Part shown: positions 40,058 to 44,800 of the stretch, in pieces
How positions within the stretch are numbered: position 1 is the first letter of the stretch
Layout: every line of letters begins with the position of its first letter
DNA from: a virus
Lineage: Duplodnaviria; Heunggongvirae; Uroviricota; Caudoviricetes
Reading direction: 5' to 3' (one strand)
IMG/VR virus record: IMGVR_UViG_2579779067_000003
DNA: 46,439 nucleotides
Notes under the pieces: model-generated
The model's input: only the letters and a program-made list of their open reading frames with translations
What the model was told of the DNA's origin: nothing
Databases searched by the model: none
Program-made: the position numbers and the translations under genes

Positions 40058-40465
40058 ATGAACGAGAAAACTTTAGGTCAACGCATTAGAGAAAGACGTA
40101 AGCAGGTAGGCTTAAGTCAAAACGGTTTAAGCAAAGCTGCTGGCGTATCTGGCTCATCAATTTCATTATGGGAAAGTGACCATACAGCCCCGCGCGGGCA
40201 AAATTTGCATCGCCTCGCCGAGGTATTGCAATGTTCACCAACCTGGATACTGTTTGGCGACGAGGACAAAACACCAGCTCCCCCTGTTTCACTCGATAGT
40301 GCCTTAGACTTATCGGAAGATGAGTTAGAGATGCTGCGTTTGTATCGCGCACTTCCTAAATCAGAGCAACAAGCACAACTCAGCGAACTCCGCGCCCGCG
40401 TTGAGAATTTTAATCGCCTGTTCACCGAGCTATTAGAGGCTCGCAAACGCAACAAGCATCAATAA
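40058..40465 (+). CDS. dicA: DicA-like repressor (XRE-family HTH, cI-type)
   Basis: MNEKTLGQRIRERRKQVGLSQNGLSKAAGVSGSSISLWESDHTAPRGQNLHRLAEVLQCSPTWILFGDEDK... closely resembles K-12 DicA. Confidence 0.85.
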   Translation: MNEKTLGQRIRERRKQVGLSQNGLSKAAGVSGSSISLWESDHTAPRGQNLHRLAEVLQCSPTWILFGDEDKTPAPPVSLDSALDLSEDELEMLRLYRALPKSEQQAQLSELRARVENFNRLFTELLEARKRNKHQ

Positions 40466-40657
40466 TCATCCCTTCACAAAATTTTAAAGCCTTACATTTC
40501 AATGTATTGGCTTTATCTTGCGCCAATACTTGAGTTTTCTCATCAAAAAACCTTGACGAAAAATAATGAGAAAACTAAATTACCTCCATCAACACACCGC
40601 ACGGTGTTCTCAGCAAACAGTTCCGCTACCCCGGCGTTAAGGGGAAATGAGGTCAGC

Positions 40658-40810
40658 ATGGATACTATCGATCTTGGCAACAGCGAATCTCTGGTATGTG
40701 GCGTGTTCCCCAACCAGGACGGTACGTTCACCGCGATGACATATACCAAAAGCAAAACGTTTAAAACCGAATCTGGCGCGCGTTGCTGGTTAGCCAGAAA
40801 CACTGACTGA
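40658..40810 (+). CDS. ydfA: YdfA-like small protein (first gene of dicB operon)
   Basis: 50 aa MDTIDLGNSESLVCGVFPNQDGTFTAMTYTKSKTFKTESGARCWLARNTD; GAGG upstream. Confidence 0.6.
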   Translation: MDTIDLGNSESLVCGVFPNQDGTFTAMTYTKSKTFKTESGARCWLARNTD

Positions 40811-40821
40811 TGAGGCTGACG

Positions 40822-41187
40822 ATGGAATTTAAAGATTTACCGTCTGATGTACAGAAAACAGCAGCTCATACATTGCATTCTGTGCTGCGAGAAATCGGGA
40901 AAGATATTGCAAGCGAGCCAGCAAAAGATCTGGCCCGGAAAATCAAGACCGCTTTCGTTGAGCTTTATAATGTTGGCACTGACTCTGAAACTGTCGAGAC
41001 CAAGACCGTAAGTTCACCAATATTCTCACTTGAGCCAGGCGTATTAGCAGGTGAAATATGCACCGAGATTTCCAGCGAACTGCTTCCGGTAATACGAGAA
41101 GCAATTTGCCGTCGCGGTTTGGATGGAAGTTACGATCATGACGTCCTGCAAGTTCTCAGGACAATGGTGACTTCACTGGGGATTTGA
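40822..41187 (+). CDS. YdfB/YdfC-like protein (single ORF here)
   Basis: 121 aa from ATG at 40822 with GAGG 6 nt upstream; position matches ydfB/ydfC of the dicB operon. Confidence 0.45.
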   Translation: MEFKDLPSDVQKTAAHTLHSVLREIGKDIASEPAKDLARKIKTAFVELYNVGTDSETVETKTVSSPIFSLEPGVLAGEICTEISSELLPVIREAICRRGLDGSYDHDVLQVLRTMVTSLGI

Positions 41188-41690: not shown

Positions 41691-41858
41691 AAGTGAATTT
41701 TGTGATGCGGTGAATGCGGCTAAGCGCACGCGGAACAGTTAAAACCAAAAACAGTGTTATGGGTGGATTCTCTGTATCCGGCGTTAATTGTTAACTGGTT
41801 AACGTCACCTGGAGGCACCAGGCACTGCATCACAAAATTCATTGTTGAGGACGCGATA

Positions 41859-42047
41859 ATGAAAACGTTATTACCAAACGTTAATACGTCTGAAGGTTGT
41901 TTTGAAATTGGTGTCACTATCAGTAACCCTGTATTTACTGAAGATGCCATTAACAAGAGAAAACAAGAACGGGAGCTATTAAATAAAATATGCATTGTTT
42001 CAATGCTGGCTCGTTTACGTCTGATGCCAAAAGGATGTGCACAATGA
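41859..42047 (+). CDS. dicB: Cell division inhibitor DicB
   Basis: 62 aa MKTLLPNVNTSEGCFEIGVTISNPVFTEDAINKRKQERELLNKICIVSMLARLRLMPKGCAQ; GAGGA 8 nt upstream. Confidence 0.9.
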   Translation: MKTLLPNVNTSEGCFEIGVTISNPVFTEDAINKRKQERELLNKICIVSMLARLRLMPKGCAQ

Positions 42048-42235
42048 ATTCAGCATTTGCGCTTGTTCTGACAGTTTTTCTTGTTTCCGGAGAGCCAGTT
42101 GATATTGCAGTCAGTGTTCACAGGACAATGCAGGAGTGTATGACTGCAGCAACCGAACAGAAAATTCCCGGTAACTGTTACCCGGTCGATAAAGTTATTC
42201 ACCAGGATAATATCGAAATCCCGGCAGGTCTTTAA
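42044..42235 (+). CDS. ydfD: YdfD small membrane (lysis-inducing) protein
   Basis: 63 aa MNSAFALVLTVFLVSGEPVDIAVSVHRTMQECMTAATEQKIPGNCYPVDKVIHQDNIEIPAGL; ATG overlaps dicB stop (ATGA). Confidence 0.8.
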   Translation: MNSAFALVLTVFLVSGEPVDIAVSVHRTMQECMTAATEQKIPGNCYPVDKVIHQDNIEIPAGL

Positions 42236-42328
42236 AACAGTTCCGTAATAAATATCCGGTTTCATTCTTATATGCCAGCAATGGCAGGGATTTGTTCATC
42301 CTTAAATCTGTCATGAGGTTAAAACAAA

Positions 42329-44800
42329 ATGAGTAAAGTCTTTATTTGCGCCGCTATTCCTGACGAACTGGCAACAAGGGAAGAAGGCGCTGTGGCTGTA
42401 GCCACAGCCATTGAAGCTGGCGACGAACGCCGTGCTCGAGCAAAATTTCACTGGCAGTTCCTGGAACATTATACGGCTGCTCAGGACTGCGCTTATAAAT
42501 TTATTGTCTGCGAGGATAAACCTGGCATACCTCGCCCTGCCCTCGATTCATGGGATGCTGAATATATGCAGGAAAACCGCTGGGATGAGGAGTCTGCTTC
42601 TTTTGTCCCGGTTGAGACTAAATCCGATCCGATGAACGTCACTTTTGACAAGCTGGCCCCTGAAGTACAGAACGCTGTCATGGTTAAGTTCGACACATGT
42701 GAAAACATCACCGTTGATATGGTTATTAGCGCACAGGAATTGTTGCAGGAAGACATGGCAACATTCGACGGACATATCGTTGAAGCGTTGATGAAAATGC
42801 CAGAAGTTAACGCCATGTATCCGGAGCTTAAGTTGCACGCCATTGGGTGGGTTAAGCATAAATGTATTCCTGGTGCTAAATGGCCCGAAATTCAGGCAGA
42901 GATGCGCATCTGGAAAAAACGTCGCGAAGGTGAACGCAAGGAAACCGGAAAATACACGTCTGTTGTTGATCTCGCCCGCACCAGAGCCAATCAACAGTAC
43001 ACTGAAAATTCAACAGGAAAAATCAGCCCGGTCATTGCTGCCATTCATCGCGAATACAAGCAGACATGGAAAACACTGGATGACGAACTGGCCTACGCTC
43101 TCTGGCCTGGTGATGTGGATGCCGGAAACATTGACGGCAGCATCCATCGCTGGGCAAAAAAAGAAGTTATCGACAACGACCGCGAAGACTGGAAGCGTAT
43201 CTCGGCATCAATGCGCAAACAGCCTGATGCCCTTCGCTACGACCGCCAAACTATTTTTGGCCTTGTCCGTGAGCGTCCGATCGACATTCACAAAGAACCC
43301 GTAGCACTGAACAAATATATCTGCGAATACCTGACGACAAAGGGCGTGTTTGAGAATGAAGAAACAGACCTGGGCACTGTTGATGTTCTCCAGTCATCAG
43401 AAACACAAACTGATGCAGTGGAAACTGAGGTATCTGATATCCCAAAAAATGAAACCGCGCCGGAAGCTGAACCATCTGTAGAGCGTGAGGGGCCGTTCTA
43501 TTTCCTCTTCGCAGATAAGGACGGAGAAAAATACGGTCGCGCAAACAAACTTTCTGGTCTGGATAAGGCACTGGCTGCTGGCGCCACTGAAATCACTAAA
43601 GAAGAATATTTTGCCCGAAAAAATGGCACATACACGGGCTTACCGCAAAATGTAGATACCGCTGAAGATTCAGAACAACCAGAACCGATAAAAGTTACCG
43701 CTGACGAAGTAAACAAAATTATGCAGGCAGCCAATATCAGCCAGCCTGACGCCGATAAGTTGCTTGCTGCATCACGTGGTGAATTTGTTGAAGGGATTAG
43801 TGACCCGAATGATCCGAAATGGGTTAAGGGGATCCAGACCCGCGATTCTGTGAACCAGAACCAGCATGAATCGGAACGGAACTACCAAAAAGCGGAACAA
43901 AACAGCCCAAATGCGTTACAAAACGAGCCAGAAACGAAACAGCCTGAACCAGTGGCGCAACAGGAAGTGGAAAAAGTCTGCACCGCCTGCGGTCAGACCG
44001 GCGGCGGCAACTGCCCTGATTGTGGCGCGGTGATGGGCGACGCAACATACCAGGAAACATTCGATGAAGAGTATCAGGTTGAAGTTCAGGAAGATGATCC
44101 GAAGGAAATGGAAGGCGCTGAACATCCACACAAGGGGAACACTGGCGGCAATCAGCATCACGATAGCGATAATGAAACTGGCGAGACGGCAGATCACTCA
44201 ATTAAGGTGAACGGTCATCACGAAATCACATCCACCAGCAGGACGTGTGACCATCTAATGATCGACCTTGAAACCATGGGAAAAAATCCTGATGCCCCGA
44301 TCATCTCAATAGGTGCAATATTTTTCGATCCGCAAACCGGAGATATGGGACCGGAATTTAGTAAGACTATCGATCTGGAAACTGCTGGCGGAGTCATTGA
44401 TCGGGACACCATTAAATGGTGGCTTAAGCAATCACGCGAAGCGCAATCTGCCATTATGACCGATGAAATCCCGTTAGATGATGCACTGTTACAATTGCGG
44501 GAATTTATCGACGAAAACTCCGGTGAATTTTTTGTTCAGGTCTGGGGAAATGGAGCCAACTTCGACAACACGATTTTGCGCCGTTCATACGAACGGCAGG
44601 GGATCCCCTGCCCGTGGCGTTACTACAACGATCGCGATGTACGCACAATCGTTGAGCTGGGGAAAGCCATAGACTTCGATGCCAGAACGGCTATTCCATT
44701 CGAAGGTGAGCGCCATAATGCACTTGATGACGCCCGTTACCAGGCAAAATACGTTTCAGTTATCTGGCAAAAACTGATCCCGAGTCAGGCTGATTCTTAA
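42329..44800 (+). CDS. ydfE: Large YdfE-like protein with C-terminal DEDDh 3-prime-5-prime exonuclease domain and internal zinc ribbon
   Basis: 823 aa; C-terminal motifs MIDLETMG (exo I), [11 protein letters not shown] (exo II), [11 protein letters not shown] (exo III); CTACGQ...CPDCG zinc-ribbon-like; uninterrupted here. Confidence 0.7.
   Translation: [823 protein letters not shown]

What the first reader, a model, noticed from the sequence alone, without database searches (positions are those of the whole stretch)
40058..44800. Intact dicB operon including a full-length YdfE-like DEDDh exonuclease
The operon dicA, ydfA, ydfB/C, DicF, dicB, ydfD, ydfE appears complete. The final gene encodes an 823-aa protein with an unambiguous C-terminal DEDDh exonuclease motif set and a zinc-ribbon-like CxxC...CxxC segment. 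In my recollection of K-12 this gene is disrupted by IS2, so the intact form here allows its function to be studied. DicB and DicF are known division inhibitors and have been linked to phage resistance by altering receptor or transport functions.
Basis: partly seen in the sequence, partly recalled or inferred. Interest (0 to 1): 0.5.

Follow-up and report, generated by a model that had tools for sequence, protein, structure and literature searches.

The report
Intact common prophage DEDDh exonuclease gene
This is the early-left operon of a Qin-type lambdoid prophage, ending in an intact 823-residue 3'-5' exonuclease gene that K-12 carries only as an IS2-truncated stump; the intact gene is annotated in about two thirds of complete E. 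coli genomes, so it is ordinary, though its biological role is still untested.

Summary
The observation largely holds. An uninterrupted 823-codon ORF lies at 42329-44800 (+). Its C-terminal domain is a DEDDh exonuclease (Pfam PF16473, E 2e-67) with catalytic residues D646, E648, D746, H796 and D801, and it has a CxxC-x7-CxxC ribbon at C551-C565. Upstream lie a DicA-family repressor, ydfA, DicF, dicB and ydfD. YdfB and YdfC are absent: an unrelated 121-aa gene and a 66-aa antisense gene take their place.

K-12 keeps codons 1-256 at 98.8% identity. A 706-bp IS2E remnant then replaces window 43096-45279.

The intact gene is not rare. 3537 of 5426 complete E. coli genomes hold at least 80% of it, and the isolated phage HannyBb has a 99% identical copy in the same gene order.

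One point was not in the finding: the protein is a RecE mosaic. Residues 262-625 are homologous to RecE 278-591, and roughly 80-85% identical from residue 472 through the zinc ribbon. The homology ends where RecE's PD-(D/E)XK nuclease is replaced by a T4 DexA-like domain.

Most likely it is a phage early 3'-5' DNA exonuclease made only after DicA derepression. Its biological role is inferred, not shown. Verdict: already known, low interest.

The parts
39753..39980 (-). dicC-like cro-type regulator, divergent from dicA
   Evidence: 70% identical to K-12 DicC. Annotated as a Cro/CI family regulator in the 99.9% identical RefSeq locus L002.
40058..40465 (+). DicA-family repressor, 135 aa, a different immunity allele from K-12
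   Evidence: NCBIfam NF007257 DicA, 239.4 bits against a cutoff of 101. Pfam HTH_3. Only 57% identical to K-12 DicA.
40553..40581 (+). Promoter-like site in the position of dicBp, upstream of ydfA (weak evidence)
   Evidence: Consensus scan gives 9 of 12 matches, but the number of sites in the region does not exceed that in shuffled sequence. The position agrees with dicBp as described in PMC10448788.
40658..40810 (+). ydfA (DUF1391)
   Evidence: Pfam PF07151, E 4.6e-27. 88% identical to K-12 YdfA.
40822..41187 (+). 121-aa gene of unknown function occupying the ydfB/ydfC position
   Evidence: phrog_33007, E 4.6e-82. No similarity to YdfB or YdfC. No Pfam, NCBIfam or PADLOC hit.
41156..41356 (-). 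66-aa antisense gene, absent from K-12, overlapping the 3' end of the 121-aa gene
   Evidence: phrog_34441, E 1.5e-50. Annotated as a hypothetical protein in L002.
41633..41684 (+). DicF small RNA
   Evidence: Rfam RF00039, 72.5 bits, full model. One base differs from K-12.
41859..42047 (+). dicB, cell-division inhibitor
   Evidence: Pfam PF05358, E 1.9e-40. NCBIfam NF049927, 132.8 bits against a cutoff of 100. 100% identical to K-12.
42044..42235 (+). ydfD (DUF1482 lysis protein)
   Evidence: Pfam PF07358, E 2.1e-26. 98% identical to K-12 YdfD. Function taken from PMC8835842.
42329..44800 (+). Full-length 823-aa exonuclease, the intact form of K-12 ydfE
   Evidence: ORF found. phrog_2082 matched over the full length. 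100% identical gene annotated '3'-5' exonuclease' in RefSeq. 99% identical in phage HannyBb.
42329..42943 (+). Exonuclease domain D1 (aa 1-205), alpha/beta, function unknown
   Evidence: AlphaFold2 pLDDT mostly 84-93. dN/dS 0.06-0.09. No informative structural relative.
43061..43348 (+). Exonuclease domain D2 (aa 245-340), helical, shared with RecE
   Evidence: pLDDT 83-92. Homologous to RecE from about residue 278. dN/dS 0.13-0.16.
43481..43639 (+). Exonuclease domain D3 (aa 385-437), small beta-hairpin and helix domain
   Evidence: pLDDT 80-89. dN/dS 0.02-0.04.
43775..43846 (+). Conserved linear motif [24 protein letters not shown] (aa 483-506) within a region predicted to be disordered
   Evidence: Nearly invariant positions in alignment A4. 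Present in 27 of the 47 representatives of at least 480 aa, across several C-terminal domain types. Near-identical in K-12 RecE. Low pLDDT.
43979..44023 (+). CxxC-x7-CxxC zinc-ribbon-like motif (C551, C554, C562, C565)
   Evidence: Read directly from the sequence. Conserved in K-12 RecE as CNACGQTGGDNCPDC and in a subset of relatives. The structure prediction here has low confidence.
44252..44767 (+). DEDDh 3'-5' exonuclease domain (aa 642-813)
   Evidence: Pfam PF16473, E 2.3e-67. Catalytic residues invariant with T4 DexA. Predicted fold best matches DexA 8KEL, Foldseek E 3e-10, followed by RNase T and Orn.
43096..45279 (.). Segment missing from K-12, where a 706-bp IS2E remnant takes its place
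   Evidence: blastn breakpoints coincide with the IS2E feature at 1650843-1651548 in NC_000913.3.
44873..45124 (+). Excisionase
   Evidence: Pfam PF06806, E 1.6e-31. phrog_539 excisionase.
45159..46439 (+). Tyrosine integrase; the ORF ends at the last base of the window
   Evidence: Annotated in L002. Window 45280-46439 is 99.2% identical to the K-12 intQ pseudogene.

Best explanation
The region is the repressor-controlled early-left operon of a Qin-type lambdoid prophage integrated next to rspB. The gene order is dicA, ydfA, a 121-aa gene, DicF, dicB, ydfD, exonuclease, xis, int.

The last gene before xis-int encodes a modular 823-aa protein. It has three folded N-terminal domains of unknown function. 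These are followed by a long acidic, largely disordered stretch that carries a conserved linear motif and a four-cysteine ribbon. The C-terminus is a DEDDh domain of the T4 DexA / Rv2179c type.

The protein is a mosaic relative of RecE. It shares RecE's non-catalytic middle part up to the linker, but carries a 3'-5' DEDDh nuclease where RecE has its 5'-3' PD-(D/E)XK nuclease.

Inferred mechanism: the gene is transcribed only when DicA repression is lifted. The C-terminal domain removes nucleotides from free 3' ends by two-metal catalysis, most probably on DNA. The N-terminal part and the linear motif direct it to a partner or substrate in phage DNA metabolism, such as end processing, recombination or scavenging of DNA.

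Shown here: the gene is intact, the domain architecture, the catalytic residues, the homology to RecE and DexA, conservation and purifying selection. Inferred only: the substrate, the partner and the biological role.
For: - Intact ORF with a ribosome-binding site.
- Pfam PF16473, E 2e-67.
- DEDDh residues invariant with DexA.
- Predicted fold closest to DexA 8KEL, then RNase T and Orn.
- BLASTP against K-12 RecE gives E 4e-61 over aa 262-625. Identity is roughly 80-85% from aa 472 through the zinc ribbon (my reading of the printed alignment), and the homology ends at the nuclease boundary. NCBIfam RecE model positions 271-602 are matched.
- Natural hybrids show the module boundary. P0128 combines a RecE N-terminus (100%) with this DEDDh domain (98%). 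P0143 combines a YdfE-type middle part with the RecE nuclease (89%).
- Folded domains are under purifying selection, with dN/dS 0.02-0.16; the linkers give 0.5-0.8.
- The order dicB, ydfD, exonuclease, xis, int is conserved in prophages with different integrases and attachment sites and in isolated phages.
- 3537 of 5426 complete genomes carry the gene.
- DicA represses the operon (PMC10448788).
- DexA is a 3'-5' DNA exonuclease (PMC12153337).
Against: - No activity has been measured for this protein.
- The Pfam family is named after an exoribonuclease, so an RNA substrate is not excluded.
- A 3'-5' exonuclease does not generate the 3' tails used by RecET/Red-type recombination, and no annealase gene lies nearby. 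A RecE-like recombination role is therefore not straightforward.
- The N-terminal domains have no structural relatives that would indicate a partner.
- In K-12, transcripts extending into ydfE were not detected (PMC10448788). That gene is truncated, however.
Confidence: 0.7

Rival explanations
1. The protein is a prophage-encoded defence or exclusion nuclease of the HREX type. Like the E. coli DexA homologue EcD, it would spare unmodified host DNA and degrade the hydroxymethylcytosine DNA of invading T-even phages, protecting the lysogen.
For: - PMC12153337 reports that EcD, an E. coli DexA homologue, degrades T4 DNA and protects against T4. It also reports that Escherichia is the commonest genus among bacterial DexA homologues.
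- The window's domain has DexA as its closest solved relative and conserves all catalytic residues.
- The domain is present in 4120 of 5426 complete genomes.
- Other genes of this operon (DicB) already confer phage resistance (PMC6832061).
Against: - The operon is repressed by DicA in the lysogen (PMC10448788), so the nuclease would not be present when a phage arrives.
- The residue aligned with DexA W152, reported as needed for 5hmC recognition, is Tyr765 here. The equivalent of D169 is unclear.
- EcD is a different protein: by its primers it begins MIDTET and ends TIPETYD. Its sequence could not be retrieved.
- No PADLOC model matches, although that library predates HREX.
- Isolated lytic-competent phages carry the gene in their early operon.
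Confidence: 0.15
2. The protein is an exoribonuclease, as many database names say. It would trim RNA 3' ends, for example phage or host transcripts or small RNAs such as products of the dicBF transcript.
For: - Pfam PF16473 is named after the M. tuberculosis 3'-5' exoribonuclease Rv2179c.
- Structural neighbours include RNase T, Orn and REXO2.
- Many records name it '3'-5' exoribonuclease'.
- The gene lies in an operon whose transcript is heavily processed (PMC10448788).
Against: - The closest solved and characterised relative is a DNA exonuclease, T4 DexA (PMC12153337).
- The same N-terminal scaffold in paralogues carries DNA enzymes: the RecE nuclease and RecT, and probably a Rad52-like domain.
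- DicF processing in K-12 proceeds without an intact ydfE (PMC10448788).
- The database names are propagated from the Pfam title, not from assays.
Confidence: 0.1
3. The gene is a decaying prophage remnant with no function of its own. It would be open here only because too little time has passed for it to be disrupted.
For: K-12 and its derivatives tolerate the truncation. Many partial copies exist in databases.
Against: - It is full length in 3537 of 5426 complete genomes and in isolated phages.
- dN/dS is 0.02-0.16 in the folded domains.
- The catalytic residues are intact.
- Many of the 'partial' records lie on contigs of only 1-3 kb, which suggests truncation at contig ends (contig ends not checked).
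Confidence: 0.03

Closest known systems
E. coli K-12 ydfE (b1577), pseudogene of the Qin cryptic prophage
   Same: Same gene at the same chromosomal site next to rspB. Residues 1-256 are 98.8% identical, and the same dicF-dicB-ydfD sequence lies upstream at 98% DNA identity.
   Different: K-12 stops at codon 256, where an IS2E remnant replaces 2184 bp. The window keeps residues 257-823, xis and the start of int. The immunity genes and the ydfB/ydfC segment also differ.
RecE (exonuclease VIII) of the Rac prophage
   Same: Similar size. The non-catalytic middle part is homologous (aa 262-625 against RecE 278-591, E 4e-61). The [10 protein letters not shown] motif and the CxxC-x7-CxxC ribbon are near-identical. 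The position in the early-left operon between the division inhibitor and xis-int is the same. The function of this shared part of RecE is unknown (PMC11611040).
   Different: There is no PF06630 N-terminal domain, no PD-(D/E)XK (DUF3799) nuclease and no adjacent recT. The nuclease polarity is predicted to be opposite (3'-5'). The score is far below the NCBIfam equivalog cutoff (284 against 1269).
T4 DexA (PDB 8KEL) and its E. coli homologue EcD (HREX; PMC12153337)
   Same: DEDDh fold and all five catalytic residues. DexA is the best match among solved structures by both sequence and fold.
   Different: Only about 26% identical to DexA. DexA and EcD are single-domain proteins, whereas here the domain is the C-terminus of an 823-aa protein. 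DexA W152 corresponds to Tyr765. EcD could not be compared directly.
Stand-alone ~190-aa exonucleases of P22-like and lambdoid phages (for example phage 1720a-02 AGR48394, epsilon34 gp34)
   Same: 56-61% identical across the whole DEDDh domain. They also lie in the accessory early region upstream of xis/int.
   Different: They lack the 640-residue N-terminal extension.
Rv2179c of M. tuberculosis (founder of Pfam PF16473)
   Same: Same Pfam family, with the profile matched end to end.
   Different: Rv2179c is a stand-alone cellular exoribonuclease, not a phage protein. No direct comparison was made here.

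Membership tests
DEDDh (DnaQ-like) exonucleases, Pfam PF16473 Rv2179c-like | Profile score above the curated threshold over the whole domain | tested here: met
   226.6 bits against a cutoff of 27, profile positions 2-177 of 177, aa 642-813.
DEDDh (DnaQ-like) exonucleases, Pfam PF16473 Rv2179c-like | Four acidic residues plus His in motifs I-III (D, E, D, H-x4-D) | tested here: met
   D646, E648, D746, H796 and D801 are invariant in alignment A3 with T4 DexA. The DexA catalytic residues are taken from PMC12153337.
DEDDh (DnaQ-like) exonucleases, Pfam PF16473 Rv2179c-like | RNase H-like exonuclease fold | tested here: met
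   The AlphaFold2 model has pLDDT 70-92 across the domain. The best Foldseek hits are DexA 8KEL (E 3e-10), RNase T, Orn/REXO2 and DnaQ.
DEDDh (DnaQ-like) exonucleases, Pfam PF16473 Rv2179c-like | Metal-dependent 3'-5' exonuclease activity | not testable with these tools
   Requires purified protein.
RecE / exodeoxyribonuclease VIII (NCBIfam NF007259 equivalog) | Whole-protein score at or above the equivalog cutoff | tested here: not met
   284.5 bits against a cutoff of 1269. Only model positions 271-602 are matched.
RecE / exodeoxyribonuclease VIII (NCBIfam NF007259 equivalog) | C-terminal PD-(D/E)XK nuclease domain (DUF3799) | tested here: not met
   Present in K-12 RecE at 615-850. Absent from the window protein.
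RecE / exodeoxyribonuclease VIII (NCBIfam NF007259 equivalog) | N-terminal Exonuc_VIII domain (PF06630) | tested here: not met
   Not found in the window protein. Found in RecE at 2-178.
RecE / exodeoxyribonuclease VIII (NCBIfam NF007259 equivalog) | Partner annealase gene (recT) immediately downstream | tested here: not met
   The next genes are xis and int. No annealase is annotated in window 20000-46439.
RecE / exodeoxyribonuclease VIII (NCBIfam NF007259 equivalog) | Shared non-catalytic middle region with the [10 protein letters not shown] motif and zinc ribbon | tested here: met
   BLASTP E 4e-61. The motif and the ribbon are near-identical.
dicBF operon of the Qin prophage | DicA repressor and divergent dicC | tested here: met
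   The NCBIfam DicA model is passed. Identity to K-12 is only 57% for DicA and 70% for DicC, so this is a different allele.
dicBF operon of the Qin prophage | ydfA, DicF, dicB, ydfD in order | tested here: met
dicBF operon of the Qin prophage | ydfB and ydfC | tested here: not met
   No similarity between any window ORF in that interval and YdfB or YdfC. No DNA homology between window 40802 and 41414.
dicBF operon of the Qin prophage | ydfE as the last gene, at the rspB-side end of the prophage | tested here: met
   98.8% identity over 256 aa. The near-identical locus L002 has rspB 188 bp beyond int.
HREX defence exonucleases (EcD; PMC12153337) | Conserved exonuclease catalytic residues | tested here: met
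HREX defence exonucleases (EcD; PMC12153337) | Trp and acidic residue equivalent to DexA W152 and D169 (reported 5hmC recognition) | tested here: not met
   W152 aligns with Tyr765. D169 falls in a gapped region with no clear equivalent. The alignment rests on 26% identity, so this is a weak negative.
HREX defence exonucleases (EcD; PMC12153337) | Selective degradation of 5hmC DNA and protection against T4 | not testable with these tools
   Requires biochemical and plating assays.

The most novel reading that the evidence does not exclude
The N-terminal and middle part shared by RecE and this protein, including the disordered [16 protein letters not shown] motif, may be a common targeting scaffold. 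Enterobacterial lambdoid phages would mount interchangeable DNA-end enzymes on it: a 5'-3' PD-(D/E)XK exonuclease, a 3'-5' DEDDh exonuclease, and probably a Rad52-like annealase.

On this reading the DEDDh version, present in about three quarters of E. coli genomes, is a functional alternative to RecE that works on 3' ends with an unidentified host or phage partner. It could also act as an exclusion nuclease.
Probability: 0.3. Interest if true: 0.5.

Novelty: already known. Interest (0 to 1): 0.2.

Why it matters
The protein is one of the most widespread prophage-encoded proteins in E. coli, and neither it nor the equivalent part of RecE has an assigned biological role. Because the laboratory strain K-12 carries only a stump, the gene has escaped genetic study.

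The nuclease-domain swap with RecE gives a concrete handle for asking two questions. What does the long non-catalytic part of RecE do? It is known only to enhance linear-linear recombination. And why would a phage want a 3'-5' exonuclease in that position?

None of this makes the present window special, because the same gene is available in thousands of sequenced strains and in an isolated phage.

Tried and rejected
- **Retrieving EcD (HAK9828821.1) for direct comparison.** Only the primer sequences were found, in the paper's supplement. Exact searches with the 23-nt reverse primer found nothing in viral contigs or genome contigs. The gene may have been synthesised with altered codons. A low-identity E. 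coli hit turned out to be the stand-alone 190-aa type, not EcD.
- **PADLOC scan.** The exonuclease, the P-loop ATPase and the two small genes gave no hits.
- **Local Pfam copy.** It lacks PF27430 and PF27432, which are precomputed for this family, so their names could not be read. They map to the N-terminal part, because 228-350-aa fragments carry both.
- **Literature.** A search for ydfE found no functional study. One search was wasted because 'full-length RecE' matched 'receptor'.
- **Second homologue search.** A search with a distant N-terminal relative returned mostly E. coli fragments and added little diversity.
- **Third C-terminal domain type in relatives.** Profile search of the PDB found nothing. 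There are only sub-threshold Pfam Rad52_Rad22 hits.
- **Frameshifted-ydfB/ydfC hypothesis.** I considered that the 121-aa gene might be a fusion or frameshifted form of ydfB/ydfC. I rejected this because there is no protein or DNA similarity.

Full report
**What is there.**
The window carries an uninterrupted 823-codon ORF at 42329-44800 on the + strand, preceded by a GAGG 10 nt upstream of the ATG. Upstream on the same strand lie:
- a DicA-family repressor at 40058-40465 (NCBIfam DicA, 239 bits against a cutoff of 101);
- ydfA at 40658-40810 (DUF1391);
- DicF at 41633-41684 (Rfam 72.5 bits), one base different from K-12;
- dicB at 41859-42047 (Pfam and NCBIfam);
- ydfD at 42044-42235 (DUF1482).

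A dicC-like gene is divergent from dicA. Downstream follow an excisionase (44873-45124) and an integrase whose ORF ends at the last base of the window.

The interval where K-12 has ydfB and ydfC holds an unrelated 121-aa gene (40822-41187) and a convergent, overlapping 66-aa gene on the minus strand (41156-41356). Neither resembles YdfB or YdfC at the protein or DNA level. The DicA here is only 57% identical to K-12 DicA, so it is another immunity type.

**Comparison with K-12.**
A 99.9% identical locus in E. coli YZ3E2001 shows that this is a Qin-type prophage next to rspB, the site of Qin in K-12. Window 41415-43095 is 98% identical to K-12 DNA covering dicF, dicB, ydfD and the start of ydfE. 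The alignment stops at the first base of the IS2E remnant and resumes at window 45280, at the first base after it. K-12 has therefore lost 2184 bp, comprising exonuclease residues 257-823, xis and the start of int. The first 256 residues are 98.8% identical.

**How common the intact gene is.**
- 3537 of 5426 complete E. coli genomes contain at least 80% of the 2472-nt gene, often in several copies.
- 4120 genomes contain the nuclease-domain DNA.
- More than 8000 protein clusters at 90% identity match the protein. They are named 'exonuclease' or '3'-5' exoribonuclease'.
- PHROG 2082 is a full-length 823-position profile of this protein.
- The isolated phage HannyBb has a 99% identical gene in the same order: repressor, dicB, ydfD, exonuclease, xis, int.
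- The order dicB, DUF1482, exonuclease, xis, int recurs in prophages with other integrases and attachment sites.

The intact state is thus the norm, and K-12 is the exception.

**The nuclease domain.**
Residues 642-813 match Pfam PF16473 end to end (E 2.3e-67). In an alignment with T4 DexA and relatives, D646, E648, D746, H796 and D801 are invariant. They correspond to DexA D7, E9, D119, H186 and D191 (the paper's figure legend prints E12 where my alignment gives E9; PMC12153337). The only solved structure found by sequence is DexA (8KEL). An AlphaFold2 model of residues 471-823 has pLDDT 70-92 in this domain. Its best Foldseek matches are DexA, then RNase T, Orn/REXO2 and DnaQ. The DEDDh assignment is secure. 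The substrate is not, because the family contains both DNases and RNases.

**The rest of the protein.**
BLASTP against K-12 RecE aligns residues 262-625 with RecE 278-591 (E 4e-61). Identity is modest at first, then by my reading of the printed alignment roughly 80-85% from residue 472 onward. That stretch includes the motif [24 protein letters not shown] and the ribbon C551-x2-C554-x7-C562-x2-C565. Similarity ends just before the catalytic domains. RecE's PF06630 N-terminal domain and its PD-(D/E)XK (DUF3799) nuclease are absent here. The protein scores far below the RecE equivalog cutoff, and no recT follows. It is therefore not RecE. It is a mosaic relative carrying a different nuclease, predicted to have the opposite polarity. 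The literature calls this part of RecE a 'domain of unknown function' that is dispensable for the nuclease but enhances linear-linear recombination (PMC11611040).

**Family-wide view.**
An exhaustive search with residues 1-640 found only 244 clusters (at 50% identity) with E-value up to 0.001, so this is a narrow family. Mapping segments onto the long members shows combinatorial shuffling:
- RecE N-terminus plus this DEDDh domain (P0128);
- YdfE-type middle part plus the RecE nuclease (P0143, and more distantly P0131, P0197 and P0235);
- YdfE-type N-terminus plus a third C-terminal domain (P0129, P0137 and others). This domain has no Pfam hit above threshold, but 8 of 9 members touch Rad52_Rad22 weakly (best E 0.0011);
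- a RecE-RecT fusion (P0200).

The [10 protein letters not shown] motif occurs in 27 of the 47 representatives of at least 480 aa, across several C-terminal domain types. The zinc ribbon occurs only in a subset.

**Structure and selection.**

Pairwise dN/dS against three alleles that are 91-94% identical gives 0.06-0.09, 0.13-0.16 and 0.02-0.04 for the three domains. The linkers give 0.5-0.8 and the nuclease domain 0.2-0.5. dS ranges from 0.008 to 1.06 between segments of the same pair, which indicates recombination inside the gene. The whole protein is maintained by selection, so it is not a decaying remnant.

**Mechanism.**
Shown by others: DicA represses the operon, transcription starts upstream of ydfA, and only DicF, DicB and YdfD have known functions (PMC10448788, PMC6832061, PMC8835842).

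Inferred: the exonuclease is made on derepression together with the division inhibitor, xis and int. It removes nucleotides from 3' ends by two-metal catalysis. DNA is the likelier substrate, for two reasons: the closest characterised relative is a DNA exonuclease, and the same scaffold carries DNA recombination enzymes in paralogues. The conserved disordered motif and the N-terminal domains presumably bind a partner, but no partner is indicated by any result here.

I put 0.7 on this explanation. The rivals are:
- an HREX-like defence nuclease (0.15). It is weakened by the repression of the operon in lysogens and by Tyr765 at the position of DexA W152;
- an exoribonuclease (0.1);
- a functionless remnant (0.03).

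**Verdict.**
The finding is real and correctly identified, apart from ydfB/ydfC, but it describes a gene that is already annotated and extremely common. The one added insight is that the protein shares RecE's non-catalytic scaffold with a swapped nuclease domain. That is a family-level observation, not a property of this window. Novelty: already known. Interest: 0.2.

Noticed in passing
window 42329-44800; proteins P0128, P0143, P0131, P0197, P0235, P0129, P0137, P0200: The RecE/YdfE family shows combinatorial domain shuffling. Two N-terminal types (PF06630 RecE type, and the YdfE D1 type) combine with at least three C-terminal types: the PD-(D/E)XK nuclease, the DEDDh nuclease and a third domain. 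There is also a RecE N-terminus fused to RecT.
   Followed up: partly
C-terminal ~260 aa of P0129, P0134, P0137, P0155, P0170, P0187, P0188, P0218, P0265 (alignment A1); phrog_2489: The third C-terminal domain has an invariant KKSLTDA..K.LS.LGF.AD motif. PHROGs and phage records label it 'exonuclease', but 8 of 9 members give weak sub-threshold hits to Pfam Rad52_Rad22 (best E 0.0011). It may be a single-strand annealing domain that has been mis-annotated as a nuclease.
   Followed up: partly
window 43775-43846 (aa 483-506): A nearly invariant linear motif, [16 protein letters not shown], lies in a region predicted to be disordered. It is shared with RecE and occurs in 27 of the 47 representatives of at least 480 aa, across several C-terminal domain types. 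This suggests a conserved binding site for an unknown partner.
   Followed up: partly
window 36281-37837 (-): A 518-aa 'P-loop ATPase, Sll1717 family' gene sits between hokD and the replication genes, where K-12 Qin has relBE, ydfV and flxA. It is a candidate accessory or defence cargo gene, but has no PADLOC hit.
   Followed up: partly
window 39248-39769 (-): The 173-aa YdaT-family gene is 97.8% identical to K-12 YdfX over that protein's first 93 residues. K-12 ydfX (96 aa) therefore appears to be a truncated remnant of this gene.
   Followed up: partly
window 40822-41356: The 121-aa plus-strand gene and the 66-aa minus-strand gene converge and overlap by 32 nt (41156-41187). They replace ydfB/ydfC and lie inside the DicA-controlled transcript upstream of DicF. 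An equivalent minus-strand gene in another prophage is named 'ECs_2282 family putative zinc-binding protein' (L008).
   Followed up: no
window 42329-44800 compared with L008, L009, L010: Synonymous divergence between alleles varies from 0.008 to 1.06 in different segments of the same gene pair. This indicates repeated recombination within the gene, with breakpoints near the domain boundaries.
   Followed up: partly
window 41684: The single difference from K-12 in DicF is C to G at the last base of the Rfam match, at the 3' foot of the terminator stem.
   Followed up: no
window 3343-3541 (-), 28323-28708 (-), 36045-36219 (-): Other Rfam matches above the gathering score are IS009, the cspA-type thermoregulator upstream of cspI, and the sok antitoxin RNA next to hokD.
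   Followed up: no
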